From: Cyanophora paradoxa CCMP329
Taxonomy: Eukaryota > Plantae > Glaucophyta
Assembly: GCA_004431415.1 (NCBI GenBank)
Contig: QPMI01000647.1
Coordinates: 1 to 64,000 of the forward strand
DNA length: 64,000 bases
Direction: 5' to 3'
A program made the position numbers and the translations under genes. Position 1 is the stretch's first letter. Every line of letters begins with the position of its first letter. Below are positions 3,284 to 37,153 of this stretch, in pieces. Below the pieces are notes generated by a model, which had not been told where the DNA came from, did no database searches, and was given only the letters and a program-made list of their open reading frames with translations.

Positions 3284-3306
3284 TTTTAAAAGGGGCTTAT
3301 ATAAAA

Positions 3307-6534: not shown

Positions 6535-6554
6535 TTATAAAGAGCAATTTAAAG

Positions 6555-7508: not shown

Positions 7509-7529
7509 TAAAATGTTTTGCTATAATAA

Positions 7530-7778: not shown

Positions 7779-7923
7779 GTGCTCCTATGTAAAGAACTCG
7801 AATTCGAAGAATGAGAGATGGGTTAATTGTTATTTTTCATAGATCATGCATAAGAAAGGCATGTATCTTGCATGTCCTTCTTGAAAGTCGTTTATTTTTC
7901 TTTCCTTCTTAGTAAAAGAAGCA

Positions 7924-8769: not shown

Positions 8770-8793
8770 AATATATATATATGTTTAATATAA

Positions 8794-9627: not shown

Positions 9628-9644
9628 AGAATATCCCTAATTAT

Positions 9645-9905: not shown

Positions 9906-10000
9906 AGGCTCGCTGAGGTGGCCTCGACATCATTTTGTTTGCTTTTGAAAAAAAGAAACAGGGACAGCCAGCCGTTTCAAACACATAGATAGCTTTTTAT

Positions 10001-10564
10001 TTACGCCCTGTTTTCAATTGGGAAATTAAGACGTAGAAAAGGCCAGTCTGCCTCTGCAGTGTGCTCAAGTAGATACTGATCTCGAGCTCTGGCTGCTTCC
10101 TCCGCTGTGGAGAAGCATCCAACATCGATTGTTTTTCTATTTTTGCCAATGGTAGCAACCCATCTGCTTTTCGATCTGTTGTAACTCACTCCAAGGAATC
10201 CGCTGGTGTTATTCGAATTCTTGTCTCGATGCATTCGGTGCTGCTGTTTTGTTACGAACTTTAGATTATCTCTGCGACAATCCAGTTTATCCCCGCTGAC
10301 ACAGAGGATGCTATGATCTGCAGGAGCTTTCCCCTTCACCAGATCTCTAAATTTCTTATGCCATCTCTCTTCAGGGTGGAATGCTACTGGATAGCCATTC
10401 GAGTCTATGTAGAACCTCAGACCAGAGAATTTCTCCTCGTCATCTTTCGAGATTAGCACTGAGTGCACTGTGTTTGGTGTCTTCACCTGAATTGCAGAGT
10501 CCATGTATCTTCCTTTCGATAATATAAGAGATTGTGTTCTCTTTATGTCATACACACCTTTCAT
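10001..10564 (-). CDS. HNH-AP2 domain protein (nuclease motif degenerate)
   Basis: GDKLDCRRDNL (HNH remnant) followed by NNTSGFLGVSYNRSKSRWVATI...VGCFSTAEEAARARD (AP2 domain). Confidence 0.85.
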   Translation of the reverse strand: MKGVYDIKRTQSLILSKGRYMDSAIQVKTPNTVHSVLISKDDEEKFSGLRFYIDSNGYPVAFHPEERWHKKFRDLVKGKAPADHSILCVSGDKLDCRRDNLKFVTKQQHRMHRDKNSNNTSGFLGVSYNRSKSRWVATIGKNRKTIDVGCFSTAEEAARARDQYLLEHTAEADWPFLRLNFPIENRA

Positions 10565-10987
10565 ATTAAACCGGGAATTTCTAGTGCGGCCTCTCAGTGG
10601 ACACTAGAATGCCTAAGCTCATACCCTAAAGTGAATTCCCAATCAGCCTCAAAGGCTCTCCCGTTAGCTACCTCCTCGAAGCTAAATCGAATTTTATTTT
10701 TCAACCCCTAAGGTACCCACGCACACGCCCTCCGGCACGTAATAGCAGAGGGAAACGTGTAAAACGATTTTGGTACACGCACGGCAAAATCAGATCGATC
10801 TAGTGAGGGGAAGACGCTAAATACCCATGGAACCGCGGCCCGGAGCGAAGCGAAGTGGCCGTAAGCGGGGTCCATGGGTGTACAACATGCGTTTGTACAT
10901 ATAGAGCGGCATATACATGGAAGCTCGATCATCGAGGATAATGAATGGAATTGCCCGGCTGCCTCTAATCGATTATGGGATGCGCAG

Positions 10988-12699
10988 GAGGCGCTGGCGT
11001 ACTACTCGCGCTTCCAGATGGACACGAACGCCATCATCACGATGGCCGTAGTCGAGGGCTGGTGCGTGCTTAATTATATAAGCTTTGATTCGGGCTACTG
11101 TAAACTTGAAGACGCCCGAAAACTCTTAGTACTATCAGTATGCAGCACACTAAATATTTCTAGCTCTATTCGGATTCGGACTGCTTTGTTATCGATTCGG
11201 ACTGCTGTAAATATTAATCGCACCAAACCTTTTTAGTACTGTAAATATTTAATGTGCAGCGTACTTTATATTTCTAGTTCTGCTGCAGCAGCTTCATTCG
11301 GATCCGATATGTACCGATTATCCACGGCGACAATTGCGGTGCCGACACCGATGCTAGATACTAAACGTGGTTTTCTAGTTTCTAGTTCGACGGTTTCTCT
11401 ATCCTAAATATATACTATACTAATGCGCGCCAGGGCCTCGCTCCTGACGGGCCGCGACGTGCGGGCCGAGGCGCTGGTGGACCGAGCGCGGCGGGCATCG
11501 CTCGAGACGGCGCGCGGGGGCCTATGGACGAAGGAGACCGTCCGCATGCTCGACGCCGTCCTCAGGTCCGCGCACTTAGGCGTACCGAAATTCGTTCGAT
11601 CCCGAAATTCGTTCGATCCCGACGCCGTCCTCAGCTGGCGGGCCGGCGACGTGCCCGCCGCCGCCGCCGCCGTCGAGGCGACGCTCGCCTTCTGGCGCAC
11701 CCAGGTCCGTCGGGATCGAACGATTTTCGGGATCGAACGATTTTCGGGATCGACGCCGTCGCAGCCTTTTGCTGAGCGTGGTCGCCGCGCGCGCAGGTCG
11801 CCACTGCAATCTGGAACTGCATGCGTGCGCTCCGGATACCCGCCCCGCCCCGCCCCGCCCCGCCCGTGCTTCGGCTATGAACCATGAACCGCCCCGCACG
11901 CAGCGGCGATGCTAATCGCTCTGGACTTTGCGCTCTGGTGGCGGTGGGACTCGCGCCGCCGCCTGGCGGCCCTCGAGCCGGGGCGCCCCGCGGCCGCGGC
12001 CGCCCGCCCCGATCGAGATCGAGAGCCGCTCCTGCGGCGCCTCCTCTGCCTGGGCCCCCGCCGCCCACGCCGCCCCGCCTCCGCTGTCTTTCCCGCTCCG
12101 GTCGGGCGGCGCCCGAGCCTCGCGGCCAACTCCAGCACCTCGTCCTCCTTCTTCTTCTTCGCCGGCCCCCGCCGCTCCAGCCTCGCCACCACCTCCTCCA
12201 CGCGCCCCCCGAGCTCCAGCGCCGTCCACGTGCACCCCGCGGCCAGCGCCGACGGCGATACCGACGGCGCCGACGCGGCGCCGGTGCCGATGCCGGCGCC
12301 GGTGGCGACGCCCGTCACGGCGGAGGCGGCCGCGGCGGAGGCGGCGCGCGCGGCGGCCCTCGCCCGCACCGCCGTCGGCCTGGTCGAGCGGATGGCGCCG
12401 CGCTGGCTCCCCGCCCTCGCCCCTTCGCGCAGCTCGCGCGAGCGCTGGACCCCGACGCGCCGGCCCCGCGGCGCCTGTCGCTCCTGCGGACCGCCCGGGA
12501 CGCCTTCGTGCGGGGCGGCCTGCAGCCCTGGGTCGCCCTGTCTTCACTCTGGCTCGCCCGCTGCGAGCCCGAGCCCGACGACGCGGCGGAGGCGGCGGCG
12601 GCGGCGCGCCGCGTCGCCCGCGAGACGGGCCTCCGACTCCCGCCAGCGAAGACGGGGGCCAAGAGGGGTACCGACGAGTACATCTCCCTCTGGGTGTAG
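10988..12699 (+). CDS. Host multi-exon hypothetical gene (5' part uncertain)
   Basis: GC-rich exon-like segments (EALAYYSRFQMD..., ASLLTGRDVRAE..., LIALDFALWWRW...) separated by GT..AG introns. Confidence 0.4.
11586..11753. repeat. 17-bp tandem units (TTTCGGGATCGAACGA-type) in inverted orientation on either side of a small exon; related 18-bp units at 14359-14409
   Basis: CGAAATTCGTTCGATCC x2 at ~11587 and CGGGATCGAACGATTTT x2.5 at ~11711. GATTCGGGATCGACCGAA x~3 at ~14360. Confidence 0.75.
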
Positions 12700-19529: not shown

Positions 19530-19825
19530 CTACCGGGGGAGGCGGGGCCGAGGCGGCGCCCGATCGGTCGCGGGCGGCGCGGCGGGCGCCGAGGAACCGC
19601 GCGGCCGGCGGGGCGAGGGCGGCGAGGGTGCGCGCCGCGCGGCCGGCGGCGCGGAGGGCGTCGGGGTCGCCCCACGCGCCCTGCGCGGCCCGCACGGCCG
19701 CGATCGAGGCGCGCATGAGGACGCGCAGCTCGGGCGCGAACGGCTGCCGCGCCGCCGCGTACGGCTTGACGGCTCCCTCCATCTGCGCGCACTCCTTGAC
19801 CCACTTGCTCCGTACCGCGTCCGGC
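19530..19825 (-). pseudogene. 3' tip of duplicated filamin-gene fragment, copy 1, separated from the rest by the Polinton insertion
   Basis: DAVRSKWVKECAQMEGAVKPY... matches the other three copies and continues at 31354. Confidence 0.85.
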
Positions 19826-20229
19826 AGCTCAGCACTGCGCCGTGTCTCCAAAAAAATACCCGCAAAAAAATCAAAAACAAATCAGAAAACAAACCATTCC
19901 CAGTAACCCAATCTTGAATATCAGTAAATCTCAGTAAGCCTCAGTAACAAAAATTTAATTAATCGACGTTATATCATAATCTCGATTAATTATATCTTAT
20001 CGCAGTTATATCTTTTTTATGCGCCGTGTCTCCAAAACAATTCCCAAGAAAAACAAACCATTCCCAGTAACCCTATTCGTATTCAACAGTAATCTCAGTA
20101 AGCCTCAGTAACAAAAATCGAATTTATCGAAGTTATATCTTAAATCTTATTTATCGAAGTTATATCATTATCTCGATTAATTATATTTAATCGAAGTTAT
20201 ATCCTTTTTATCCGCCGTGTCTCCCATGA
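19826..20229 (+). repeat. Left terminal inverted repeat (404 bp)
   Basis: AGCTCAGCACTGCGCCGTGTCTCC...CTCCCATGA is the reverse complement of 30950-31353. No mismatch seen by eye. Confidence 0.95.
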
Positions 20230-20230
20230 T

Positions 20231-21291
20231 TTAGCGTTTCGTTAAACCACTTCTCAAATTGTATCTCCTCCGAATTACATTACTCCGATTGGGTTTTATG
20301 CCTTCTTTTGCTACCAATCGATTCACTTTATTCGTTTTATTAACCTGCTGAATCCGTTTTTGTGATGGTATCTTAATGATATCATCTTTATTCACCTTTT
20401 GCAATTCTTGTTTCTTAAATCTCCTCTTCACTTCTTTTGTTTCCTCACCATCATTATCTTCAAGCACTTTGAAACGATTCCTATCAGCCTTTGCAACAGT
20501 GTAGACCTTCTGACTGAATTGCGCACCTTCTTTTTCAAACAATCCCTTTGGTTGCAAAACTCGAACTGTGTCTCCTGGTTTCACTTGATTAGTATCAGCC
20601 TCCTTTACACGATTGTTGTGAACAGTATCCCTCATGTAAATAAATAACTGTTTATCTTCATTTGTATACACTGCATTTGGAGAGTCATTTTTCAATGCAG
20701 AATGGGGACTGCCATTATACAAGTCAATTACATCACTAAGTAGATCGATCCATTTCGTGGTTCCCTTTGCTGTCATCGATTTTCTGAGATACTGTTTGAA
20801 AGTCCTAGTGAACCTATCAATTATCCCCAGTTTATCTCCTACTGTGATGTGGTCATCCTTTGCCACATCTGTGTATAGCATTACACCATGTTCACTGCAC
20901 CAATTTCGGTATACTGCCTGGGAAAACTCATTATCCCAGAGAGAGCATTAACTTTGCCTGCTTCTTGCTTGAACCTATTTAAAATGCTCGGGATCTCACT
21001 GCTGTTTTTAAAAGGATAAACAAATCCTTTGCGACTAAGTATGTCTACGAAACTAAGCATTTTGAAAATGCCATTGTTGGCAGTCTGAAACCCTCTGAAA
21101 TATGTTATATCGATTTGAAACGATCTAGGCTTTGCCACTATGCGAAGAAACGATTTGGGTTTCCTTGGTTTCTTGTAAATTTGCTGGAGTTCTGAGTTTT
21201 TGAACTTCTTTTTCAACTCTTTTTCATCAAAACTCACTTTTTCATTAATCAGTTTCTGCCTATACTTTTTGAATGATAATACACTATCCAT
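20231..21291 (-). CDS. Retroviral-like (rve) integrase of Polinton type, one frameshift at ~20936
   Basis: FQIDI, VDILSRKGFVYP, restored SGDNEF, IIDRFTRTFK, KWIDLLSDVIDLYNGSPHSAL and KPGDTVRV...FEKEG. Confidence 0.9.
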
Positions 21292-24200
21292 TATTGGGCG
21301 GCACAGTTACACTTAATATGAGAGAGGAAACAATTTTGGTAATGTGAGCCACAGCATTATTAATTCGATCTACCGAAATATCTTCAAAGTCCATGGCATT
21401 GTAGCATCGCAGGCAATGCCCATACTGCTTCCCATATCGCTGCTTGATCCAATCCCATGTGATGTAATCATGCTCATCGAATTGTCTGTTTGCTGCTCGG
21501 TCCTGATCCTTGTAAGTCGAAATCTTCTCGTTATTCTCTCTTTTCCACACTTTCCAGTGAGCCATTTCGAAATTATCATGGTAAATAACAACATCATCCA
21601 GCCTTGTGGTTCGAGTGAGAGCAACATATAGCCACTTCTTTGAAACAAATGGCGCCCCAGTTTCGAACACGACTACCCTGTTCCCTTTGCAGCGAATCGT
21701 ATCACCTTGAACAACATGGCAGGTGTTTGCGTAAGCCAGGGCGAAATGTTTGACTGCATCCCTGCTGAGAACAATCTCATCCTTCTTGTTGGCAATGTCA
21801 GCAATAATGAAACTGTCCTTTGAGAGCTTGACAATCTTGTAGACAAATCCATTATGAACTATCTTCCCACCCTTTGCAATACGAGTCTTTGCAACAACTT
21901 TGATCCCGCCAGCATAAATGGAAACATTATCCCCGTAGTTCATTTTGTGAAGGGCTAGGTTCACCTCTGCACCCTTGCGGTTTGTATACACAATGCCTTT
22001 ATCTGTCTTTGCCAATTCGTCCACAACCTTGAACCCGTACTTTGCTAGGACCTCACTTACACTCAAACCTTTCTCGAATAAATCAATTCGAATTTGCTCA
22101 ACCTTTCTGCGATCTTCCTCAGTCTCATGGCGCTTGTTCACTTGGAGTAACAATTCGTTGGGGAACAGGCGATGGAGGATATCAAGGTAATACTCATCTT
22201 GATCAACACTCATATCCTGAATGGGTGGGTTCTGATACGGGTCACCTGTGGCAATGTATACCTTATCTGGGAACTGCTCATTCATGATGTGGTCCAGGGC
22301 TGCCAGTTCTCCAATCTTAAACTGACAGATCTCATCAATAACAATGCAATCAAATTCTACCAAACCAGATGCATTCCCTCCTACGATTTCATCCATGTTC
22401 GACTCATCGATTTTGAGATGAAGGGCATCATAGATTGTCTTCACATTTTTCAATCCTTGCTCTTTCATTTCCTTCACTCGCTTGTTGGTCGGAACAATAT
22501 AGAGGGATTTTTGAAACGCTTCCCATATTCAACTGTCATGTGAGTCTTTCCAACTCCTGGAACTGATCCGAGAAGAACCCATCGTTTTTGTGTAGCCAGC
22601 AAATCACAAATCGCGGTTGTGTCATACTCATCAACCACAGAGTGTTTGGTATAACTGTAGTTCTCGATTTTCACAAAGTCAGTCGCTCTCTCAAACTTTC
22701 CGTAACGAATTCGTTTTGCCTCGAGGTCTTTCTTCTCACCTGAAAACTTTTTAGAAAAATTGGGGCAGCATTTCACACTGAATTTTCCAATATTCTCAAA
22801 GGCATTGCGATCGAATGACACTGGGGCAATGGGTTCATAAGCGATCCCATAAACACAATCGGTGTTCAAAGCGAGTGGTCGGATCTGCTGTTTAGCGAGT
22901 TCGACACACTTCTCATACATACACATCCTCATAATTGACAAGAGGGTAGTGTACAATGGCATGAAGCCATCAATGAGCTGCTTTTCTGCTACCTGATTGA
23001 CATAGTAGATATGGGGTTCGGTCATCTCTTCCTCACACAGAACGAACTCTGTCTCCTCATAAGTGGCAAGAGTCTCACCAAAGAGGTAAATTTTAACCTC
23101 CCCTCCGTTCTGTTTCTGGAACTCGATCGCATCGTCTCTGTTGTGGAAAATGGTGGTTTTCACTCTGCTATTTCGTTGCTTTCCAGTTTGCCCAATTGCA
23201 CTCACCAAGATCTGCTTCTTATCAACAGGATCGAGGTCGCTATCTAAGATTCGAGCAACTGTGTTGCCTGCAAGGTTGGGAATGAGTTTGTAAGGTCGCA
23301 GAACCGCTTTGATGGAGATGTCATCCTTGAAATCCTCGAAATGCTTTTTGAGAACCAAACCAGGAACGACATTGTACTTGGAATCAATGATCATCCTCTT
23401 GTATCTGTTGTAGGTGTTTGCTTCGTACTCCTTTCCGTTCTTGTCTTTGGCTTTGAAAAAGTATTTGTCGTCCAGTTTCACGTAATAGAAGCTGTATTCC
23501 TCGATTTGCTCTGCATCTGTGATTGTCACACTCTTGAAGACATCGAACTTGCTGAGAACAGGAACGAATTTGATCATCAAGGCTACAATGTAAGGGTATG
23601 CTTTGCACATATCGAACTCGTAAATATCTGTGTTATAGCGAATTTCATCAAAGGTCTCCTCATCCACATCAAAGAGACCACGAAGGGCAGTCTGCACTCC
23701 ATTCTTGAATGCATTTATGGTTTGCTCATTGTAAGTACTCTTGTTGGAAGTGTTGATTAGAGACCTATACATATCCAGATTTAGTTTCTCGAATTTATCT
23801 CTGTACTCAGCATTCTTGAAGCTAATCTCGAAAGCTGTTTCCACATCTGTATCGTTACCAGGTGGGGTCACGACAACATCCTTATCGTCAATAGTGAAAC
23901 GAATATGGGTTGCCTTTCCGATTTGGGAGAACCCAGGTTGGACCTGATAATTATGCACCACAATGAACTCTCTGAGTAGTTCATCCAGTGAACCACCATA
24001 GCAGATTCGAATGCTCGATTGGTTCTTTGGATTGTCAGACCTGACAATTCTCAGAATGTCATCGGGATTTGTGGCAAACTCCTTGAACCTTCTTTGCTTT
24101 ATAATCTTGTAACGAGAACTGAGTGGAACATTGGTATCTTTTGGCTTGGAGCCATTGAAGGACTGTGTGAGAGCCTTAATATTGTGATTTAACAAATACA

Positions 24201-25373
24201 TGTGACCATTCTCAATCTTCACATATGCAACAGAAGGGGTCAAGTGTGTGTTCCTGGTCTTGGGCAGGAAAGTCAGTTCAGGGACAGGGGTTCTGTCGTC
24301 CTTTCCAATTGTAACCATGCCTAGGCGCAGTGGGTCAAGAACCTTCTCCGAAATGGACTTGAAAGAAATGCCCAATCATCTCCTTCAACAGGGTCTCGCC
24401 CATTCACCATCTTAAAGAGTCCGTTGTAAGACCAATCGATTCGCTTGTATTTCCCTTTGGTCTTAGCCTTCTCAAACGCTCCTCCAAACCATTTGATGAG
24501 GACATCGAAAACACACTTCCCAACCTTGAATGAATCACCTTTCAAGAACATTTCCTTGAATGTGGTGGCTTGGGGGTTCCCTTCGTTTTAATGAAATTCG
24601 AAATAATCATTGGAGCGTTTGTATTGTCTCTGAGGACTTGTTCATTTCTTGGGATGTATTCTTCATTATCTGTCGTGATGACTCTTTCAATTGTCATAAT
24701 ATCGGGTAGGTATCTTGCTCAATTAGTTTTAGGTAGCGGAAATCTTGATTGGTCGAGTTAAACTCAATAACTGCTGCAATAAATTCAGCAATGACAGTCC
24801 CTCAACACATGGGAACGTATTGAAGGTGGATTGAACCAGACCGAGAGCATTCAGAAAAGCTGCCTTGGTACACTGGATACCAAAGGGGCGATTGTTCCGA
24901 AGCCTCTTCGATTCAATGTAGGTCACACCATTCTCAGTGACCCTGTTTGCATTTGCAGGGGCTTGTTCTCCCTCTTGCAACTCACGGAAGAGTCTCACAT
25001 TCAGGGTGACCATGTTTCCAGGTGAGTTTTCAACAAACTCACGGAGGTTAGCAATCATCTGCTGGAAAGGAGTCAAGCGCTTCCGCTCTCTCGCTTGCTC
25101 CGCTTTCTTGTTTTGCTTCTCAACATTCTTAGCGGCTCTCTCAGCCCTCTTCTCCTTCTTCTCCTGCTTGCGATACAAACGAGGCTCTACGATACCTCTC
25201 AGTGTATCTCTGATATCAATCAACTTTGGAATTCTAATTGCTTTGAAAGTAAATTCTCTCAAGAAATAGATATCCTGCTCTCGGGTCAATTTGTCTTCTA
25301 CTTTTGCTTGCATGTAGTAGCCAAGAATCTCATCCTGCAAATTTTTCGAAATTCGATTACTTGGTCGAGGCAT
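21291..25373 (-). CDS. Family B DNA polymerase-like domain fused to superfamily 1 helicase and C-terminal HNH/Zn domain (~1,350 aa, several frameshifts)
   Basis: PolB motifs A (FDMCKAYP), B (KQILVSAIGQTGK) and C (LNTDCVY). Helicase motifs: Walker A GVGKTH, Ia IVPTNK (after restoring one base at ~22505), IDEI, GDPYQNPP, TCHVVQG and YVALTR. C-terminal CxxC...SVDRINN..H...NC...CN. Confidence 0.85.
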
Positions 25374-25614
25374 TTCTTTGTTCACTCTATTAATATATAC
25401 CTACAAAAGTTTTCTTTAAATACTTTTATACTCGCGTCAAATTTTACCGACAAAACCAAAAGTCTCCAACAAAATAAATTTAGTCGAGGGCATTCATAAA
25501 AATAACAAAGGGTTGGCTCGATCATCGAACTCTAAAAATAACAGAATGATTATATTTGTGGTTCCAGCGCGTTTCCCACGGGTTTCTCAGAGCAGATCGC
25601 GCTGAGAAAAACGA

Positions 25615-25872
25615 TTAACAGAGATATTTCGATTTGCGACCACGGTTAGAATACGGGACACCATAGAGATACTTCACAAAGCAGACTGCATTGGAAGCAT
25701 AGAGACGCTGGGAACTCTCAACGATCTTCATGGCTCTGTAACACTCATCAGTATGGTATAAGTCACGCATTTGCTTTGCAAATCTGGCATTGTACTTTTT
25801 CAAATATTCCTGACCTTTTTCAGTTTTACGATAACGATAAGTAGCACGCTTCTGAGCCTCACTGATTGGCAT
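25615..25872 (-). CDS. Small basic putative DNA-binding protein
   Basis: MPISEAQKRATYRYRK-type basic helical N-terminus, common in small viral proteins. Confidence 0.55.
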   Translation of the reverse strand: MPISEAQKRATYRYRKTEKGQEYLKKYNARFAKQMRDLYHTDECYRAMKIVESSQRLYASNAVCFVKYLYGVPYSNRGRKSKYLC

Positions 25873-26221
25873 GTTGTCCTTTTCTACTCTCTTAATATAT
25901 GTTAAGAAATCTTTAAGTAGTTTTTCTGTCTGTATATAGCGAATAAACTCCTGTCAAATTTTGGTCCCGATTGCAGAGCATCCAGTACGAAAGAAGATGC
26001 TGGAAAAATGATAAAGCCACCGATACCCAGAAGGTTCACTTGTCGGCTGCAAGTTTCTACCACTGAACCCGGTAGAACAGGTGATTAAAGTGATTTACCT
26101 ATGGATATTTCACTTCGCTCTACAACGCCTCCATAAAAATGAAGAAGTTTTGAGCCTACGGGATAGGATTGGTTACGTAGCGCTAACAATGTTTGAGAAA
26201 TTATATTATTCAGATTGATCC

Positions 26222-26983
26222 TTAACGGCGATAACCGGGTCTTATACCAAGCTTGGCGAATCCAGAGACCATTGGGGCAGCATTTGGAATCGAGTTGACT
26301 GGATCAGCCTGCGAAGTGGCAACCCGAAGGATCGACTTATTGAGAACCGGCAAATCCGTTTTGTTGGAGTCTTGATACTCAATGGTCTTTGCAATCAATT
26401 CTGTAGGTGAGTCTTTTGCCACATGAACAGGTTCGGGAATAACTTCATGGGTTACTTCTGGTTTCTTCTCAACCTTTTCCTTTGTGATTGGCTGTTCCTT
26501 GATCTTGTTTTCGTTTTTGGTCTCTGCTGCAATACCATCAACAAGACTCTTAGCATACTGATATGTTACAGATTTCAGTCCACCAGTGGTTGAACGAATA
26601 AAGTAGCGGTTGCGATGGTCTTTCTCGGAATAGGTTGAGTAGAGTCGCTCACCACCATCAAGCAGTTTCAGCAGTGTCGATGATGAGGCAACCTTGTCCT
26701 TTGTGGATGATTTGAACTGTCCTTTCTTGATTCCTCGTTTGGCTCCGGGCATGCGGTTCAGTGGGACTTGGTCAACAAGGGCATTATCATCATTACTGTT
26801 TTTCGTAGTGGCTTGGGTGAATTGGTTTCGTTCTTTATGGACTTCCTTTTCGAGGTCACCAGTTCCGTATGCAGCGAGTCCTTTCGATTTCTTATACCAG
26901 TTCCTTCCATTCTCACCATTGCCAACATCCGCTTCAGCGGCTGGTTTGGCTAAGAAATTCTTGGGTTGAGTCTTGCGAGCCAT
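26222..26983 (-). CDS. Lysine-rich hypothetical protein (candidate virion core protein)
   Basis: Intact 253-aa ORF, basic and low-complexity, directly downstream of the penton gene. Confidence 0.6.
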   Translation of the reverse strand: MARKTQPKNFLAKPAAEADVGNGENGRNWYKKSKGLAAYGTGDLEKEVHKERNQFTQATTKNSNDDNALVDQVPLNRMPGAKRGIKKGQFKSSTKDKVASSSTLLKLLDGGERLYSTYSEKDHRNRYFIRSTTGGLKSVTYQYAKSLVDGIAAETKNENKIKEQPITKEKVEKKPEVTHEVIPEPVHVAKDSPTELIAKTIEYQDSNKTDLPVLNKSILRVATSQADPVNSIPNAAPMVSGFAKLGIRPGYRR

Positions 26984-27019
26984 TTGTAATATTGAAACAA
27001 ATTTATTCTACAGTATTTC

Positions 27020-27906
27020 CTATGACCGTGAGAACGGCAGGTAGAGTCCCTCCAACTCTTTTATGACATTCTTCAATGCTTTTTTCGTCAGATCTTTATC
27101 ATCTTCAGTAATCAGTTCAAGAGTCATCGACCAGTCGGTAGTAATGTCTGCTGTGGCTCCATTCCAGTAAGAAAGTCTCACATCTAGAGTCTCAACCTCA
27201 ACCAAGCCATTCTGCTCGTGAACGATCATGGAATTATTCGATGAATCATATTTTAATAGACTGCCAACCGTTTGGTCAATCTCAATTTTCGCGATAGCAT
27301 TGTTATCTCGTTTGTTATTGCTCACATATCTTCCTTTCAGTGGATCAACATGAAGAAGCAAATAGGAATTAAATAGTAGATCTAATGGCATTTCACTATC
27401 AATGTAGTGAGCATAAGTAAAGGCTCCAACTGTGACATTAGATGATAGAGGACTCGATTGGTACAGTGTGTTAGCATTTTCAAAACCACAGAAATTGGCT
27501 AAGAGTTGAGTGTTCATAGTGATTGAGAATGGAACCTCACACATGAACCTTAGAAGCAATGTTGTGGGATCATAGGTTACATAGAAATGGCGAGTGTAAG
27601 TTCCGCCACCCGCTTGATTATAGGGCTGGGATCCAATGCGAGCGATCAGATAATTCACCAGTGAATCCGGTGTATATGCACCTCGGAGGACTTCGTTGTT
27701 TCTATTCTTTGGGTTCCCAGCATTATCGAGTGTTTGTGTGGTGAGGGTTCCTACTTCAGAGAGGTTGTAAAGATTGTGAAACATCTCAAAGTTCGTTACT
27801 CGACAGGCTCTGACCTTTTGGATCGCATAAGGGAGTCTGTATGTGAAATTAGTTGGGGTTCCATCCGATCGGTCCTGGAATCAATATTGAGATAGTAACG
27901 CGTCAT
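27020..27906 (-). CDS. Minor capsid protein (penton), one frameshift at ~27874
   Basis: Restored N-terminus MTRYYLNIDSRDRSDGTPTNFTYRLPYAIQKVRACRV. Also SYLLLHVD, AIAKIEI and LDVRLSYWNG...DWSMTLEL. Confidence 0.85.
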
Positions 27907-27958
27907 TCTGTTTAATAAAGCATTTTAAAAATTTCTTTTGGTATTTTAAACATAAGAG

Positions 27959-29181
27959 ATGGCACTCACTGGAACTACCCTGAAGGAACTCCTCGTAACT
28001 CCCGGTTCCGATCAAATTTATCTTTCCCCTGGTCTCCAAATCGGAACCAACCCAAATACAAACCATTCCTCGAGCAAGTTCGTCCCCGGGCAACACTTTT
28101 GGCTTCAAGAATACCGCTTACTTTGATCTACCTCGCAAGCAACTCCTTGCTGGTGTTTCGCTCTATTTCAAGATTGCCACTGGTGGTGGTGTAGCCTGCA
28201 CCCTCCCCAATGGTGGTTCTTCTTTTATTAATGAGGTCCGTTTCGTTCATGGTGGTTTCAAGTATATTATCCCTGGTGATTGGATCACTGTAAACGCCCT
28301 GGTCGATAATGATCACGCTACCATGAGCAGCATGTATGCTTCTCTCGGTTACTTCAAAGAGACAGATCGTGAAAGCACAGATGAAGCAATGGAATACATC
28401 GTTAGAATCCCGCTGCTTTCTGGAAGAAGCTTATTTCCCATTATGTACGCTAGCCGATATGCCAACAATCGAGGTTGATTTCCGTGATGCTGCGATTGTC
28501 CAAGTTCCGGCTGGTGGATCTGTAACCTTTGCGGATTGCTCTCTGATCTGCCAATTCGTAAACATTGCTTCGGCTGAGGCTGAGACACTCCTTAAAATGG
28601 CGAACGAACAAGGTGGCATTCGCATCCCGATCACAGAGGTCATTCACAAGAAGACCCGAGCGCTCAAAACCGCTGATGCTGGTGAATCTGTTGAGGTTAC
28701 ACTCGCTAATGTTTCTGGTCTGGTTCACTCGATTCTGATGACTGTTCGAGAGGTGAACAAACTTAACACCTACACTCACTCGGATTTCTGCGGTCATGAA
28801 TCTGCTGTTAAGATTGATCAGTTCCAGATCTTCCACAACAATCGCTCCCTGGATATATCTAACAAACCCATTTCCGGTTTCCTCTCTGCTGTCAATCACA
28901 TTCCTTCTCACTACAAGGGTGTTACTGTGGGCAATACCACGTACGGATTCGAGTCTGGAAATGTTTACGGAATTGTTCTTTCCAAGTCTGGAAAAGATTC
29001 GCTTCGGAACTCGGTTATGGGTTACCAGGATTTCTTCAACAGCAGCTCGAGTTACATGGATCTCACTGTTTCCGGATGCACTGATGCCGCTCCTGTTCAG
29101 GTTGATATCTATGCCCTCCGACACAATGTTATGGTACTTAATGGCTACAACATCTCTACCCTGAAAGTCTCGAACTTCTAA
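27959..29181 (+). CDS. Major capsid protein (double jelly-roll), ~2 frameshifts
   Basis: An unlisted upstream frame FGFKNTAYFDLPRKQLLAGVSLYF...FINEVRF...YIVRIP joins YFPLCTL...IEVDFR. C-terminus VDIYALRHNVMVLNG. About 405 codons, between the penton and ATPase genes. Confidence 0.8.
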
Positions 29182-29260
29182 AGTTCTTTCTTTTGTTAGT
29201 GTAGGAAGCGCAATTATTTGTAGGTGTGTACTTTATTTTGTTTTTTATCTTATTACTGTA

Positions 29261-30019
29261 ATGGATAACACAGTAAATCTTGATGATATTCCGGAGTTCG
29301 ATCCGAGTAAGACGGTTCGAATCCCGACAAGAATTTTGAATGTTGGTCGCTCCAATACAGGTAAGACAATGTTCACAAAATACTTACTTTACGAGCTTCG
29401 TGACAAGATCGATCAAATCGTTATATTTAGTTCAACAGCTTTTACTGGACAATTCAATGACATCACCCATCCCGATAACATCTATGAAGAGTGGGATGAT
29501 AACATTGTTTTGAGATTGATCAGTATGCAAAAGAAACGAATTGAGAATAACGAAAAGCGAAATAACCTAGTTATCATACTCGATGACATGATAGGTTCAA
29601 ATTTGGATATGCATAATTCGGCTGTGTTATCTAAATTAGTAACGAGTGGAAGACATTATTCAATCTCGGTAATCTTTAATGTTCAGCGTTTGTGTTCTAT
29701 TTCTACTACCATTCGTCGCAATGTGGAGTTCGTTGTATTTTTCAATATTCTTGGGAACGAGAAAGAGTTCAATTGCGCCTTTGATGAGTACAATGGTGGT
29801 TTGGATAAGAAGACCTACAAGGAATTGCATAGACTATGGGGTTATAATTACCAAACTGTCATAGCTAGCCTGCAAGGTTATGATATCAAGACCTATACTG
29901 ATAGAGCAGTACTCACTGATGATGATATAAAGGGCTTTAAGAAGTTTGTGAAGAGAAAAGCAATTAAAAGGAGTCAGATGGCTCGGATTCAGCGAGAAAT
30001 GACCACAATCAGTGTGTAA
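29261..30019 (+). CDS. A32/FtsK-HerA family genome-packaging ATPase
   Basis: GRSNTGKT Walker A, LVIILDD Walker B, SGRHYSISVIFNVQ arginine-finger/sensor motif, and IRRN. Confidence 0.95.
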   Translation: MDNTVNLDDIPEFDPSKTVRIPTRILNVGRSNTGKTMFTKYLLYELRDKIDQIVIFSSTAFTGQFNDITHPDNIYEEWDDNIVLRLISMQKKRIENNEKRNNLVIILDDMIGSNLDMHNSAVLSKLVTSGRHYSISVIFNVQRLCSISTTIRRNVEFVVFFNILGNEKEFNCAFDEYNGGLDKKTYKELHRLWGYNYQTVIASLQGYDIKTYTDRAVLTDDDIKGFKKFVKRKAIKRSQMARIQREMTTISV

Positions 30020-30261
30020 AAGGTCGATTTTGAGAAATGTTGTATAATAAGGTAGCTTGAAATACTGTGGGATTGCACAGTTGCGTAGAGCTTAAACAGC
30101 GCTTCAAACCGATATGCAGAACGTTGCGAGATCATAATCTGGTGATGAGATACAAGCGTTTGAAGATGCCGATAATCGATTTACCGAAACTTCGGTGAAA
30201 CGTGAGCGAAACTTGAACCGTGAGATCATATACCCTACTATGGTTTATTCCCCGGGTTTTC

Positions 30262-30348
30262 ATGGCGCATTTAATGGCGCATTTAATGGCGCATTTAATG
30301 GCGCATTTTATGGCGCATTTTATGGCGCATTTTATGGCGCATTTGATG
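30262..30348 (+). repeat. 12-bp tandem repeat ATGGCGCATTT(A/T/G) x7
   Basis: Directly visible. Confidence 0.95.
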
Positions 30349-30407
30349 AAAAGTCCCTACTCTGTGGCATGAACCAATCAGAAGCCAGCAAATTTAAAAT
30401 TAATATA

Positions 30408-30512
30408 TGAGGTATTATCTGAGATATAATCTGAGGTATTATCTGAGATATAATCTGAGGTATTATCTGAGGTATTATCTGAGGTATTATCTGAGATGTT
30501 ATCTGTGATATA
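30408..30512 (+). repeat. 12-bp tandem repeat TGAG(G/A)TAT(T/A)ATC x~8-9
   Basis: Directly visible; two interspersed variants. Confidence 0.9.
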
Positions 30513-30949
30513 AACCTGGGGAGAAGTTGAAGGGGGATACAACAAAACAAGTAGCACACCAATCAGATTGCGTCACACATATATACATATACATCATGAC
30601 AATATACACATCGCCGTGATCGTCATGATCTCCCGAATAAGCCGGTGTGTCATATATATCAGATACATATACATCATCATCATGACGTCATATATGAATA
30701 TATATCACATATACACAAATTGATATGTTATAGGTTTGACTATAAATCGATTTCCTATGATATATATGATATATATTACAGTGATATATTGACGTATATA
30801 CGATTCAAAAACAATTAAAATTCTATTGTTTTTATTGTCGTTTCTATTGTTGTTTCTAGTGTAACAAATACAGTAAAAAATCGTTCAAAAAATACAGTAA
30901 AAAATGAGAGGTTTTTCTTTCGAGGTTTTAACTAAACTTACTTAGTTAT

Positions 30950-31353
30950 TCATGGGAGACACGGCGGATAAAAAGGATATAACTTCGATTAAATATAATT
31001 AATCGAGATAATGATATAACTTCGATAAATAAGATTTAAGATATAACTTCGATAAATTCGATTTTTGTTACTGAGGCTTACTGAGATTACTGTTGAATAC
31101 GAATAGGGTTACTGGGAATGGTTTGTTTTTCTTGGGAATTGTTTTGGAGACACGGCGCATAAAAAAGATATAACTGCGATAAGATATAATTAATCGAGAT
31201 TATGATATAACGTCGATTAATTAAATTTTTGTTACTGAGGCTTACTGAGATTTACTGATATTCAAGATTGGGTTACTGGGAATGGTTTGTTTTCTGATTT
31301 GTTTTTGATTTTTTTGCGGGTATTTTTTTGGAGACACGGCGCAGTGCTGAGCT
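30950..31353 (-). repeat. Right terminal inverted repeat (404 bp)
   Basis: Reverse complement of 19826-20229; ends ...GTGCTGAGCT. Confidence 0.95.
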
Positions 31354-33132
31354 CCGGCAGCGCAACGGCGTCGGGGGGCGCCCCCGGCGCCAGCGCCGCC
31401 GCCGCGCGGGCCCCGACGTCCGCGCAGATCTCCCGCAGCCGGTGCTCCAGCCGCTGGATCGCCAGCAGCTGCGGCGGCGCGTAAGTCGCAGACGCGGACG
31501 CGCGAACGGAACGAGGGGGGTACCTGGACGAGGCATCGGGCGTCAACGGAGAGGCGGGAGACGCGGCCCGTGGCGACGAGCGGCCGCCCGTCCCCCGTCT
31601 GGTCCACGAGGCTGAGGGACCAGTCCCAGTTCTCGCACGCCTGCAGCGCCGCGTACTCCTCCGCACCCTACAACAAAACAAGGTGAGCAGGGGGGTACGC
31701 GGAGGTCGATGGGGGGTACCTCGATCCAGAAGGCGGCGAAGGCGTCGCCGTCGGGTCCGAAGGTGACGGCGCGGGCGCGCTTGACGCGGGAGCCCGCCGG
31801 CTGGCCCCCGACGGGGAACGGCAGCTTCAGCTCCGCGTCGCAGTACCGCGCCGCCAGTCCCGCGTCCGCCGCGATCTGCGGGGGTACCGCGTTAGGAGAC
31901 GGGGGTACACAGCGGGGCAGACGTGGCGGGGGGCGCACGGTCGCGAGGGCAACCTCGAGGGTCTCCTCGCTCGAGTCTGGCGGGGGAGGCAATCGGCATG
32001 GGGGTACGAAATCGGGGGAAAGGGGGGGGGGGGGGTTACCGCCGGTGGGCAGGGCAACGTAGGCGCCGAGGCGCGCGGGGCCGCAGATGTCGTCCTGCAC
32101 AGTCTCGAGGAAGACCCGGTCCTGGGTACGGGATCAAAAAGGTTCCGCGGGGGGTACGGGATCGGGTGGGGGAACGCACGGCCTCGACGGGGGCGATGAC
32201 GTGGAAGGAGAGGGGGGGGGAGCTGCGGCATGAGCTGCGGGGGCGTCAGGCGCGCCGAGAAGAAAGGGCCCCCGCGGGATTCGAGCCCGGGCGCACGGAG
32301 ACGAGGGCCTCGAGGCGCGGCTCGAAGTGCTCGGGCGCCAGACGCCGCCCGTCCTAGAGAAGCACCTGGGCGGGGGGGGGAGAAGTTAGCGGGTACGGGG
32401 TGGGGTCGAGAGGGGAGGGGGTACCAGGACGCAGCGGGCGCCGGCGGCGATGTCCTCTGGCGTGAGGGACACCGCGAAGGTCCGCAGCGCGTCCGCAAAG
32501 GCGTACATCTGCGTTCGGGGGGTACAGTAAAGAGGAGATTCGGTGGCGGAGCAGCCGGGCCCGGGGCGGGGACCCACCGCGACGGCGTGGGGCAGCCGTC
32601 CTCGTCGGCCCCTTCGAAGCCGCGGGCCCAGCCGCGCTCGACGCCGAGCGCCGGGTCCGCTCCCAACGTCATCTGAGGCGCGGGACGCTGATCTGAGGCA
32701 CGGCGAGACGGAGGGGGGTACAGGCACGCTCACCTCGCTGGCCCTGCGGGGGGTACAGATGAAGACATCGGGCTCGAGGCCGCGGGCGCTCCCAACAAAG
32801 CGGAGGAGGGATACGGTGGCGGCCTTGAGCGAGTCCAGGAAGGTACAGACGGCCGCGAGGAGCAGCGTGCGCGGCGGGCGCGCCGCCGCGCCGGCGCGCT
32901 GCAGCGCCGCGCAGAGGAGCGTCCGTTGCATGGCCGAGGCGTGGGGGCCCGAGCCCGACTGGACCAGCGCCAGGCTCGCGCCCAGCGGCTGCCGCAGCGC
33001 CGGCGTCGACCGCCCCGCCCGCTCTGCCGCCGCCTTAGAAAACGAAAAAGAAGGGGCGGGGGGCGGGGAGGGCCGGACCGCGGGCGACGGTCCAGCAGAG
33101 GGGGCTCCCCTGCACCGCCTCCCCGTTGACCT
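31354..33132 (-). pseudogene. 5'-truncated duplicate of filamin gene 3' end, copy 1 (Polinton-disrupted)
   Basis: Same exons and introns as 48289-50349. Confidence 0.8.
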
Positions 33133-35081
33133 CAGCTGCCGCGAATGGCGCCGGAATGGCAATGGCACACGATTATGGTTCAGCTCTGCCCATTCTCCGT
33201 CTGTGGCCGCGCAGTGAGCCTGTTGCGAGCGCCGTCAGCTGACCATGGCCGCGGGCCGAGCCGGCGCTCCTGCAGAGGCGAGCGCGTTTCCGAAGTTCCG
33301 CTCGCGGCGACACAGGCGGCGCGAGTCGCGGCGCGACAACGTCGGTGGGGCCTCGGTTGGCTCCGTGGATCGTCTCCGTGGAGCTTCCGTGGAGCGAGGG
33401 CGGCAGGGCGGGGGTCGGCGCGACAGCCGTTGAACGTCGACGGGCCTGCGGCAGACCGCGGCGTTTTAGAGCGTCTTGCGCGAGCAGCCAGGTGAGCTGT
33501 GTGCCTCTAATTCAAAAAGAGCACCGCAAGGTTGCTTGCACGTTGAAGTCCATCTTTCCCGACTCGGCCACGTGCAGAGCGCCGGGCTGTCGTTTTCACA
33601 GCAGTTTGGGCACTGTTTGGCCCGATCAGGGGTACACTGTCTCCGGCCATGGGGCGTACGCAGCTCGAAATCGGTTAGGGTCTTGTTCAAAGTCCTTGCA
33701 ATTGAAGATCAGGTGGTGGATTTTCACTGAGTCAAGCCTTTGCAGAACGTGCGCTCCGCATGCTTCTGAAGCTCCTGCACGCGTGGTGTCTTGAACCCGC
33801 ACGCTTCTAAAGCTTATTCCGCAGGTTCAGTTAAATGGAAAGTCAAGGCAGACTGCTTTGGAGCGGTGAGCGCGTTCCGCGCGCGGGTCCCTCGACCTCG
33901 GCCGCGGCCGCGGCCGCTTTCACCTCAAGCCCGGCTCCGTCGCCGGGCGGATTTCGTGTCAAGAGATTCTCCGTGCACGGTCAGATGCTCTCGCTGTCAA
34001 AGACCTCGCCCGGTGCCCTCTGAAGGCTTCGAATTCCTCTGCATGCGCAGGCCAAGGCGTCGGCGCCGCTATGCATGCAGTCCAAGTGAAGGAGAAGAAT
34101 TCGGCTTCGCATGTATCCAGTTCCCGAAAGTCGTCGCCCAGCGCCCACGTGCACGTTTTCCTTGCGATATTAATTGGCGGCCGCGGCCCTCGAGCTCGGC
34201 CGTTCTTCACTCCCGCGCTAGCGGTCTCGTCCGGCATCAAGCGCCTTCTGGCGTGCAGCCGTTCGGAGGTCTCGTCGAGCGCTGTCAGCATTCTTCGCAT
34301 GCCGCTGTTCAGCAAGCTGCAGGTGAATCTCCTTTTGCTCCCTTTGATTTCGCCGAATCAGACGCTCGCCCGGCCCGATGCTTTCTGCAGGCCGGCTCCT
34401 CTGGCCATGCCGACCCCGAGGGCCCGACCACCCTCCCGCTCACTGAATCGATCGACTGGCGCTGCGAGCTGGAGGACGCGTTGCCAGGCGGTCTGGGAAA
34501 AGCGCTTGTTCGAGTGGTCGCCGTGCTGATCCAGGCGATGTCGCGGGCCGAGACGAAGATTGTTGTTAGCACGATGATGTTGATGATCTTCATGCCCATA
34601 CAAACGGTAATTATATAATCTTAGAGCTGTTGCCCACCTGCAATATTTCTTACTCGTGTCTCAGTTTCTCGTTATCTCGCTCATGCACCAGATGGGAATG
34701 CTGTAGGCATCTATAGCTAGATTTTGCAGCTGCAGACTGCTGAATGTCTGTCGACTATTTGTATGCATATGCAGGACCCCGGCCGCCGGGCCGGCTGATC
34801 GCATGCAGAGGGTCAAACAGGCGCGGGTTGCCGGCAGCCGCCAATGCATATGCATATGCAGGCCAAGGGCTGGATCCGGAGCATGTGGCAGCCGCCTCTC
34901 AAGAGTCTGATGCGCTCGGGATCGGATCGGCAGCATTCGGAAGGGAGCTCGAGCGGAGGAAAAGGCGGAGGAGGGAGCGAGCTCGAGGGCGAAGGAAAAG
35001 GCGGAGGAGGGAGCGAGATCGAGGGTGGAGGATCGCTTGCACTGGAATGGAACATGTACATGGTGAGGGGCTACCGGGGGG

Positions 35082-37153
35082 CTACGGGGGAGGCGGGGCC
35101 GAGGCGGCGCCGGAGCGGTCGCGGGCGGCGCGGCGGGCGCCGAGGAAGCGCGCGGCCGGCGGGGCGAGGGCGGCGAGGGTGCGCGCCGCGCGGCCGGCGG
35201 CGCGGAGGGCGTCAACGTCACCCCACGCGCCCTGCGCGGCCCGCACGGCCGCGATCGAGGCGCGCATCAACACGCGCAGCTCCGGCGCGAACGGCTGCCG
35301 CGCCGCCGCGTACGGCTTGACGGCCCCCTCCATCTGTGCGCACTCCTTGACCCACTTGCTACGCACCGCGTCCGGCAGCGCCACCGCGTCGGGGGGCGCC
35401 CCCGGCGCCAGCGCCGCCGCCGCGCGGGCCCCGACGTCCGCGCAGATCTCCCGCAGCCGGTGCTCCAGCCGCTGGATCGCCAGCAGCTGCGGCGGTGCGT
35501 AAGCCGCAGACGCGGACGCGCGAACGGAACGAGGGGGGTACCTGGACGAGGCATCGGGCGTCAACGGACAGGCGGGAGACGCGGCCCGTGGCGACGAGGG
35601 GCCGCCCGTCCCCCGTCTGGTCCACGAGGCTGAGGGACCAGTCCCAGCTCTCGCACGCCTGCAGCGCCGCGTACTCCTCCGCCCCCTGCGGCGGCCCGAG
35701 GTGAGCAGGGGGGGGGGGTACGCGGGGGACGAGGGGCGCGGGGTACCTCGATCCAGAAGGCGGCGAAGGCGTCGCCGTCGGGTCCGAATGTGACGGCGCG
35801 GGCGCGCTTGACGCGGGAGCCCGCCGGCTGGCCCCCGACGGGGAACGGCAGCTTCAGCTCCGCGTCGCAGTACCGCGCCGCCAGCCCCGCGTCCGCCGCG
35901 ATCTGCGGGGGTACCGCGTTAGGGGACGGGGGTACACGGCGGGGCAGGCGGGGGGCGCACGGTCGCGAGGGCAACCTCGAGGGTCTCCTCGCTCGAGTCT
36001 GGCGGGGGAGGGAATCGGGCTGGGGGTACCGAATCTGGCGGGGAGGGGGCGGGGTACCGCCGGTGGGCAGGGCGACGTAGGCGCCGAGGCGCGCGGGGCC
36101 GCAGATGTCGTCCTGCACAGTCTCGAGGAAGACCCGGTCCTGGGGTACGGAATCAAAGGGGTTCGGCGGGGGGTACGGTATCGGGTGGGAGAGCGCACGG
36201 CCTCGACGGGGGCGATGATGTGGAAGGAGAGGGGGGGGAGCTGCGGCATGAGCTGCGGGGGCGTCAGCTGCGGGCGCGCCGAGAAGAAAGGGCCCCCGCG
36301 GGATTCGAGCCCGGGCGCACGGAGACGAGGGCCTCGAGGCGCGGCTCGAAGTGCTCGGGCGCCAATCGCCGCCCGTCCGAGAGCAGCACCTGGAGGGGGT
36401 GAAAGTTAGGGGGGTACGGGGCGGGGTTGAGAGGGGAGGGGGTACCAGGACGCAGCGGGCGCCGGCGGCGATGTCCTCTGGCGTGAGGGACACCGCGAAG
36501 GTCCGCAGCGCGTCCGCAAAGGCGTACATCTGCGTTCGGGGGGTACAGTAAAGAGGAGATTCGGTGGCGGAGCAGCCGGGCCCGGGGCGGGGACCCACCG
36601 CGACGGCGTGGGGGCAGCCGTCCTCGTCGGCCCCTTCGAAGCCGCGGGCCCAGCCGCGCTCGACGCCGAGCGCCGGGTCCGCTCCCAACGTCATCTGAGG
36701 CGCGGGACGCTGATCTGAGGCACGGCGAGACGGAGGGGGGTACAGGCACGCTCACCTCGCTGGCCCTGCGGGGGGTACAGATGAAGACATCGGGCTCGAG
36801 GCCGCGGGCGCTCCCAACAAAGCGGAGGAGGGATACGGTGGCGGCCTTGAGCGATTCCAGGAAGGTACAGACGGCCGCGAGGAGCAGCGTGCGCGGCGGG
36901 CGCGCCGCCGCGCCGGCGCGCTGCAGCGCCGCGCAGAGGAGCGTCCGTTGCATGGCCGAGGCGTGGGGGCCCGAGCCCGACTGGACCAGCGCCAGGCTCG
37001 CGCCCAGCGGCTGCCGCAGCGCCGGCGTCGACCGCCCGCCCGCTCTGCCGCCGCCTTAGAAAACGAAAAAGAAGGGGCGGGGGGCGGGGAGGGCCGGACC
37101 GCGGGCGACGGTCCAGCAGAGGGGGCTCCCCTGCACCGCCTCCCCGTTGACCT
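35082..37153 (-). pseudogene. 5'-truncated duplicate of filamin gene 3' end, copy 2
   Basis: Same exons as 48289-50349. Homology ends at ...CCCCGTTGACCT. Confidence 0.75.

What the first reader, a model, noticed from the sequence alone, without database searches (positions are those of the whole stretch)
21291..25373. PolB-SF1 helicase-HNH fusion that keeps both catalytic aspartates
Seen: single-base corrections join four ORFs into one polyprotein. Motif A (FDMCKAYP) and motif C (LNTDC) retain the two metal-binding Asp, motif B lacks the NxxYG Asn/Tyr, and no exonuclease motifs were recognised. Known: SF1 helicase fused to an inactivated PolB is a described signature of transpovirons, Tlr1 and some Polintons/PLVs. 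Inference: this is the element's only replication protein, so the PolB may be active (a TD-type motif C as in primer-independent PolBs), giving an all-in-one nick/unwind/synthesise replicase.
Basis: partly seen in the sequence, partly recalled or inferred. Interest (0 to 1): 0.75.

Follow-up and report, generated by a model that had tools for sequence, protein, structure and literature searches.

The report
Polinton-like virus polymerase-helicase, likely active
A small DNA virus integrated in a eukaryote's chromosome carries one 1,362-residue gene joining protease, DNA polymerase, helicase and nuclease domains; the polymerase is likely active, but this protein family and that prediction are already published.

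Summary
The fusion is real. Short-read contigs carry one extra base at six places in the gene. Read through these, window 25373-21291 is one 1,362-aa ORF in an 11.5-kb polinton-like virus (404-nt terminal inverted repeats, 5-bp target duplication, rve integrase, capsid, A32 ATPase). Both catalytic Asp and the motif B Lys and Gly are invariant in 115 of 115 long homologues at 21-34% identity, so the palm is likely active. This is the known 'Tlr1-like helicase'. Krupovic et al. 2024 (PMC11161782) already renamed it pPolB-S1H and predicted activity by the same motif C argument; I found no biochemical test. Small differences from the published picture: the motif B Tyr is gone across the set, the window's subclade also lacks the Asn, and an exonuclease remnant seems to persist. 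De novo priming and a nicking role have no support; protein priming fits better. The scan found this family before on other DNA (e1-7145383, e1-7769355). New member of a known kind.

The parts
19821..19825 (.). 5-bp target-site duplication, left copy
   Evidence: empty copies of the same host repeat at 35367 and 39373 hold the five bases once
19826..20229 (+). left terminal inverted repeat, 404 nt, starts AG; internally duplicated
   Evidence: I1, 100% complementary to 30950-31353; I2-I5
20231..21291 (-). rve-type integrase, one assembly break at 20934; its ATG overlaps the replicase stop (TAATG)
   Evidence: (rve_3 E 0.013, below cut-off)
21291..25373 (-). pPolB-S1H ('Tlr1-like helicase') replicase gene, 1,362 aa, six assembly breaks
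21291..21541 (-). C-terminal zinc-binding HNH (His-Me finger) domain, PacI-type DR-x6-H-x3-N
   Evidence: PacI best PDB match, E 1.8, weak; Pfam HNH in 4 of 12 rows, best E 0.0057
21586..22590 (-). SF1 helicase, Pif1/RecD2-like; Walker A GVGKT, Walker B DE, motifs III-VI
   Evidence: best solved-structure match E 2e-21; Pif1, RecD and Dda entries among the hits
22770..23757 (-). protein-primed-type PolB palm, fingers, TPR1, TPR2; Asp589 (23613), Lys721 (23217), Asp840 (22860); no KxY motif or thumb recognised
23760..24090 (-). likely dead remnant of the 3'-5' exonuclease domain (ExoI strand missing, ExoII and ExoIII Asp lost)
   Evidence: structural alignments run into the exonuclease domains of phi29, Tgo, 9oN-7 and P. 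calidifontis enzymes; collinear profile match, E 0.03, best of 13 windows
24150..24610 (-). vOTU-like cysteine protease, Cys288 (24515) and His392 (24204)
   Evidence: Cys 111 of 111, His 114 of 114; Otu2 chain 8c83_x, Z 4.4, rmsd 1.9, 55 residues, weak; architecture as in PMC11161782
24611..25373 (-). variable N-terminal region, presumed to include the terminal protein (not tested)
   Evidence: no invariant column among 51 well-filled ones; 10 of 10 variant codons are synonymous
25615..25953 (-). small basic ORF, about 85 aa from its ATG, unknown
   Evidence: (no Pfam match)
26222..27007 (-). unknown ORF, about 250 aa
   Evidence: no Pfam match
27020..27906 (-). presumed minor capsid protein, one break near 27873; label from position and look only
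   Evidence: no Pfam match
27959..29181 (+). [quoted passage not shown]
   Evidence: (feature score 0.97-0.98; Capsid_NCLDV on 13-18% of cluster members; recognition value low)
29261..30019 (+). A32-type packaging ATPase
   Evidence: Pox_A32 E 1.5e-15
30950..31353 (-). right terminal inverted repeat, ends CT
31354..31358 (.). target-site duplication, right copy

Best explanation
The gene encodes one pPolB-S1H ('Tlr1-like helicase') polyprotein of an integrated polinton-like virus, and its palm is likely a working, proofreading-free DNA polymerase that would copy the linear genome from its ends by protein priming. Shown: the single ORF, the domain order, the phi29-type fold and the invariant catalytic residues. 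Inferred: the vOTU cuts off the N-terminal region, which serves as terminal-protein primer at the two identical ends. The palm then extends it with the two-metal mechanism (Asp589, Asp840, Lys721). The fused SF1B helicase moves 5'-3' on the displaced strand and opens the duplex, standing in for the lost exonuclease and thumb. With the motif B Tyr gone (and the Asn in this subclade), fidelity would be low. The PacI-type HNH is likely a kept DNA-binding or cutting module whose step (excision, resolution, or none in replication) is open. Insertion is by the rve integrase with a 5-bp duplication.
For: One frame of 1,362 aa; most homologues are single proteins of 1,200-1,400 aa. 27 of 29 variant codons between copies are synonymous (30 of the 36 variant rows used). 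In 115 homologues of 900 aa or more (of 150 listed; 21-34% identity over the palm), Asp589, Lys721, Gly729 and Asp840 are each 115 of 115 and Tyr594 is 111 of 115. Only 2 of the window's 23 palm Asp are invariant, the two catalytic ones. Near-invariant columns are as dense in the palm (8 of 241) as in the helicase (10 of 318). The AlphaFold model from a 70-row alignment has pLDDT 87.7. It matches phi29 polymerase (Foldseek E 9e-10; Z 14.1-14.9 over 352-356 residues, rmsd 4.6-5.2) against Z 8.7 or less for other family B polymerases. The Asp sit at the end of the motif A strand and in the motif C hairpin turn, the Lys on the fingers helix. Profile alignment to 13 phage pPolBs puts motifs A, B, C in register (E 0.002). 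vOTU Cys and His are invariant. No other replication gene was found. PMC11161782 makes the same prediction.
Against: No activity assay exists here or in the papers found. Motif B Asn and Tyr, which bind the dNTP and guard fidelity in RB69 gp43 (PMC3564110 passages), are both absent in the window's protein. The KxY motif is not conserved (K.Y within 40 aa in 16 of 113); PMC5499653 took this loss as a sign of inactivity. The homologues were found with a query that holds the motifs, which favours rows that keep them. None of the variant codons lies in the palm, so the synonymous bias says nothing about it. The Asp-Asp distance could not be measured. The terminal protein was not identified. Sequence-profile scores against phi29-type enzymes are weak (probability 15%).
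Confidence: 0.72

Rival explanations
1. The palm keeps its metal site only to load the first nucleotide or few nucleotides onto the terminal protein, or to bind the primer end; host or helper-virus polymerases do the elongation behind the helicase.
For: Loss of motif B Tyr across the set, of Asn in the window's subclade (14 of 17 Asn-less rows in one clade of 16, support 0.92), of KxY and thumb and of proofreading. The 2016 paper read such losses as inactivation.
Against: TPR1, a long TPR2 and the full palm are kept. The Lys proton donor and the sugar-gate Tyr are kept. PMC11161782 lists active enzymes with the same motif C.
Confidence: 0.17
2. One reading: a primer-independent, piPolB-like enzyme, in which the HNH nicks, the helicase unwinds and the palm primes de novo or extends the nick.
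For: TD-type motif C. The HNH is kept in 98 of 116 rows with a conserved His where PacI has its catalytic Tyr, more than a passing intein remnant would suggest.
Against: Motif C of this type is shared by unrelated groups. The invariant vOTU dyad and perfect terminal inverted repeats fit protein priming. The HNH is absent or replaced in some members (P0132 has a different C-terminal domain; Tlr1 has GIY-YIG). No piPolB was compared directly.
Confidence: 0.08
3. This copy is a decayed provirus and the fusion is an artefact of joining separate or broken genes.
For: The window sequence has seven breaks in these two genes and more in the capsid genes; raw reads of this one locus were not available.
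Against: Short-read contigs carry the extra base at all or nearly all of the depth at most breaks; all seven breaks are in homopolymer runs; the terminal repeats are 100% identical; homologues are single proteins.
Confidence: 0.03

Closest known systems
[quoted passage not shown]
   Same: Size 1,000-1,400 aa; order N-terminal domains, vOTU with Cys/His, palm with TPR1/TPR2 and TD-type motif C, SF1B helicase, C-terminal HNH; no motif 4; no catalytic exonuclease; predicted active since 2024.
   Different: The 2024 paper calls motif B conserved; here the Tyr is gone across the set and the Asn in a subclade. It describes the exonuclease as lacking, while a dead remnant seems to lie between vOTU and palm here. 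It reads the HNH as an intein remnant; here it is PacI-type and kept in 98 of 116 rows.
Tetrahymena Tlr1 element (PMC5499653, PMC11161782)
   Same: Terminal inverted repeats, rve integrase, MCP, mCP, packaging ATPase, no maturation protease found, pPolB-S1H as replicase.
   Different: HNH instead of GIY-YIG at the C-terminus; only 11.5 kb and seven genes.
pMVRE group 2 elements with palm-retaining truncated pPolB (PMC13215967, passages; supplement search, four rows seen)
   Same: Endogenous elements with terminal inverted repeats and a truncated pPolB fused to an SF1 helicase. The supplement has 12 Cyanophora entries in its element table (the two rows seen are group 2); unchecked earlier notes name that alga for this genome.
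   Different: I did not match this element to a listed one, and did not place it in their tree.
Bacillus phage phi29 DNA polymerase (1xhx, 2pyj)
   Same: Best structural match; motifs A, B, C in register; TPR1 and TPR2.
   Different: phi29 has a live exonuclease, DTD motif C, NSLYG motif B, KxY and thumb, a separate terminal protein and no helicase.
OmPLV Helicase SF1-pPolB of Oxyrrhis marina (PMC12721341, parts 1-3 of 7 read)
   Same: SF1 helicase and pPolB in one protein of an endogenous PLV, fragmented in the assembly.
   Different: Opposite order (helicase first), full exonuclease, independent origin by that paper's tree, tyrosine recombinase.
Primer-independent PolBs of pipolins (recalled; cited in PMC11161782 for motif C only)
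   Same: First Asp of motif C missing.
   Different: From recall they keep a proofreading exonuclease and have no vOTU, terminal protein or helicase; not compared here.

Membership tests
pPolB-S1H / Tlr1-like helicase | single 1,000-1,400 aa protein with PolB palm N-terminal to an SF1 helicase | tested here: met
pPolB-S1H / Tlr1-like helicase | protein-primed-type palm with TPR1 and TPR2 | tested here: met
   phi29 Z 14.1-14.9 over 352-356 residues against Z 8.7 or less for other family B enzymes; insertions at both TPR positions
pPolB-S1H / Tlr1-like helicase | vOTU domain with catalytic Cys and His upstream of the palm | tested here: met
   Cys288 111 of 111, His392 114 of 114; weak Otu2 match to the modelled half
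pPolB-S1H / Tlr1-like helicase | no functional proofreading exonuclease | tested here: met
   ExoI strand absent, ExoII and ExoIII Asp not conserved; a remnant fold likely remains
pPolB-S1H / Tlr1-like helicase | SF1B (Pif1/RecD-like) helicase | tested here: met
   motifs near-invariant
pPolB-S1H / Tlr1-like helicase | C-terminal HNH or GIY-YIG domain | tested here: met
pPolB-S1H / Tlr1-like helicase | terminal-protein-like domain before the vOTU | not tested
   the N-terminal 335 aa were not modelled (both folding jobs used)
pPolB-S1H / Tlr1-like helicase | falls in the Tlr1/transpoviron/PLV clade of helicase or palm trees | not tested
   no named reference member was at hand; the trees hold unnamed homologues only
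Polinton-like virus (Tlr1 type) | double jelly-roll MCP and A32 ATPase | tested here: met
Polinton-like virus (Tlr1 type) | terminal inverted repeats, rve integrase, 5-6 bp target duplication | tested here: met
Polinton-like virus (Tlr1 type) | minor capsid protein | tested here: inconclusive
   candidate 27020-27906 has no Pfam match; not folded
Polinton/Maverick proper | full pPolB with catalytic exonuclease, plus maturation protease | tested here: not met
   exonuclease motifs lost; no protease match among the element's ORFs
piPolB (pipolin primer-independent PolB) | de novo DNA priming | not testable with these tools
   needs biochemistry; no piPolB sequence or structure was compared
PacI-type His-Me finger (group 20 of PMC5714182) | no canonical His; catalytic Tyr in the omega loop | tested here: inconclusive
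   Arg at the canonical position in 95 of 99; His, not Tyr, at the loop position in 94 of 99; match to PacI E 1.8

The most novel reading that the evidence does not exclude
This subclade holds the most stripped-down working family B polymerase: no proofreading, no thumb motif, neither Asn nor Tyr of motif B. It acts as an error-prone or initiation-only enzyme, and a His-type PacI-like nuclease on the same chain cuts at the element's ends to free the provirus for protein-primed copying.
Probability: 0.15. Interest if true: 0.6.

Novelty: new member of a known kind. Interest (0 to 1): 0.28.

Why it matters
Whether Tlr1-like palms polymerise has been open since 2016 and was predicted in 2024; I found no test in print. 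The 115-of-115 invariance of the catalytic residues in a separate, wide set of homologues adds weight to that prediction. This compact, apparently intact and recently inserted element is a handy test case, and its Asn-less motif B would probe the minimal needs of family B catalysis. The family, architecture and prediction are published, so a specialist would not be surprised.

Tried and rejected
No whole genome is held. Word-index homologue searches with the 633-aa piece found nothing in the 'longer' and 'near' length classes; the full HMMER search found 153. Single-sequence folding failed (pLDDT 30). No related loci in viral contigs (no conserved stretch, 13 pattern matches, none confirmed) or phages, so the gene context of the homologues was not seen. 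Atlas search of the palm piece gave only a 0.81 lead. Pfam does not see the PolB in the window piece or in 19 homologues. The family profile does not hit any polymerase in the PDB by sequence. Profile against phi29 alone was not significant. The HNH piece alone hit nothing relevant. No RNA holder was listed, and the two RNA-guess runs gave only short low-depth pieces: no evidence on expression either way. dN/dS across homologues was not attempted at 21-34% identity; column conservation was used instead. Contig depth was not used as copy number. 35 of the 150 listed homologues (under 900 aa) were left out of the counts. One fetched, unannotated phage record (L010) was left out of the 13-sequence pPolB profile. 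No look-alike among earlier findings by sequence or nearby. The SI of PMC11161782 and the figures of both Krupovic papers were not seen; they may already show Asn-less motif B rows or an exonuclease remnant.
Full report
Setting. The finding lies in an AT-rich island (40.5% GC, 11,528 nt) in flanks of 61-75% GC. The island is bounded by 404-nt perfectly complementary inverted repeats, 19826-20229 and 30950-31353, with AG...CT ends. Five bases are duplicated at the insertion; two empty copies of the same host repeat in the window (35367, 39373) hold them once. The element encodes an rve-type integrase (E 0.013), the replicase, two unknown ORFs, a presumed minor capsid protein, a double jelly-roll capsid protein and an A32 ATPase (E 1.5e-15). 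It is a Tlr1-type polinton-like virus. Earlier notes name the host as the glaucophyte Cyanophora paradoxa; I did not test this.

The fusion is real. Twenty of 24 listed runs hold the stretch or part of it. In the two DNA runs laid, the contigs carry one extra base at six places in the gene and one in the integrase. In one search three of the six are listed for 4 of 4 runs; the rest of that table was cut, but gap counts agree. X6 and X9 share a sample. All seven breaks are in short homopolymer runs. Read through with X, the gene is one ORF of 1,362 aa from 25373 to 21291, made of seven pieces in the raw window. Of 29 codons that differ among copies or runs, 27 are synonymous, including all 10 in the N-terminal region (30 of 36 variant rows used, four lying outside the gene and two from a depth-2 contig). 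None falls in the palm. A full HMMER search gave 153 relatives, 150 listed, mostly single proteins of 1,200-1,400 aa.

Catalytic residues. I aligned the 115 homologues of 900 aa or more; identity over the palm is 21-34%. Motif A Asp589, motif B Lys721 and Gly729, and motif C Asp840 are each present in 115 of 115; the sugar-gate Tyr594 is in 111. Of the 23 Asp in the window's palm only those two are invariant; the next is 107 of 115 and the rest 58 or fewer. Near-invariant columns are as dense in the palm (8 of 241) as in the helicase (10 of 318). The first Asp of motif C is Lys, Asn, Arg or His in most rows. The motif B Tyr is not among the six commonest residues of its column. The motif B Asn is kept in 99 of 115 but is Val in the window; 14 of the 17 Asn-less rows form one clade of 16 (FastTree support 0.92, that column excluded). 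In RB69 gp43 the Lys is the proton donor, the Asn binds the triphosphate and the Tyr guards fidelity (PMC3564110, passages). The KxY motif is not conserved. One bias: the query held these motifs.

Fold. The 633-aa middle piece folded well from a 70-row alignment (pLDDT 87.7, pTM 0.84). Phi29 polymerase is the clear best match (E 9e-10, Z 14.1-14.9 over 352-356 residues, rmsd 4.6-5.2); other family B enzymes reach Z 8.7 at most. In the viral library the best hit is an unnamed 999-aa protein (H6WBE3, E 6e-15), followed by protein-primed polymerases, including that of mavirus. Profile alignment against 13 phage pPolBs puts motifs A, B and C in register (E 0.002, probability 15%).

Cys288 (111 of 111) and His392 (114 of 114) mark a vOTU protease, with a weak structural match of the modelled half to Otu2. 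Between vOTU and palm lies an alpha/beta domain (aa about 430-540). Structural alignments extend from it into the exonuclease domains of phi29 and three archaeal enzymes, and its profile aligns collinearly with phi29 residues 27-177 (score 17.6 against 14.2 or less for 12 other windows; E 0.03, weak). The ExoI strand is missing and the ExoII and ExoIII Asp are lost, so it is likely a dead remnant. The helicase is Pif1/RecD2-like. The C-terminal domain has its first CxxC in 98 of 116 rows, Arg at the canonical His position (95 of 99) and a His seven residues on (94 of 99). Its best solved match is PacI (E 1.8), where the His aligns with a loop Tyr; PMC5714182 (passages) says a loop Tyr replaces the catalytic His in PacI. 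Cutting is therefore possible but unshown.

Mechanism. Most likely (0.72) the polyprotein is cut by its vOTU, the N-terminal part primes at the two identical ends, the palm polymerises without proofreading, and the helicase opens the duplex ahead. The architecture and the conservation are shown; every catalytic step is inferred. Rivals: initiation-only palm (0.17), primer-independent nick-started replicase (0.08), decayed or artefactual fusion (0.03).

What is known. PMC5499653 (parts 1-3 of 5) described the fusion, with a C-terminal HNH in PLVs, as inactivated. PMC11161782 reversed this: the missing first Asp of motif C is also missing in active mavirus, pipolin and archaeal enzymes; the proteins have TP-vOTU-palm-S1H organisation and are predicted active; they should be called pPolB-S1H. 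PMC13215967 (passages and a supplement search) catalogues such elements in 97 eukaryote genomes and has 12 Cyanophora entries in its element table. PMC12721341 (parts 1-3 of 7) describes an unrelated helicase-first fusion. PMC12220804 (passages) gives 14-40 kb as the PLV range. Five searches found no biochemical test; subscription journals are mostly outside that library.

Verdict. Observation confirmed; interpretation partly supported and already in print. New member of a known kind, with minor twists: the Asn-less motif B subclade, the exonuclease remnant, the PacI-type HNH and the 11.5-kb size. Interest 0.28.

Noticed in passing
window 19826-31353: At 11.5 kb and seven genes the element is below the 14-40 kb range given for PLVs in PMC12220804, yet has integrase, replicase, capsid and ATPase.
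   Followed up: partly
window 21289-21293: The replicase stop and the integrase start overlap (TAATG on the minus strand), which suggests coupled translation.
   Followed up: no
window about 20790-20830 (integrase): The integrase reads IIDRF where rve enzymes usually have Glu as third catalytic residue (motif recalled), so DDD rather than DDE; the clean 5-bp duplication suggests it or a sister enzyme works.
   Followed up: no
window 21327-21337, 25375 and 25500-30380: Contigs with loose ends leave the window sequence at both ends of the replicase gene, and many more variant contigs cover the capsid side. This fits sister elements that share the capsid module but swap the replication gene; depth is not copy number.
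   Followed up: no
window 1-11400: A second AT-rich virus-like element: minor-capsid-like ORFs, patatin phospholipase (E 2e-11), fibre-like repeat ORFs and an HNH-AP2 protein; its left part runs off the window.
   Followed up: no
window 30250-30530 and 19826-20229: Two tandem arrays (12-nt units) lie just inside the right terminal repeat only, and the terminal repeat itself holds a roughly 190-nt internal duplication; possible origin or protein-binding sites.
   Followed up: no
window 31353-50500: The insertion target is a GC-rich host repeat of about 4 kb present in several tandem copies (D1-D7).
   Followed up: partly
window 11585-11747: Inverted blocks of a 17-nt repeated word just beyond the right edge of the first element (I6).
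   Followed up: no
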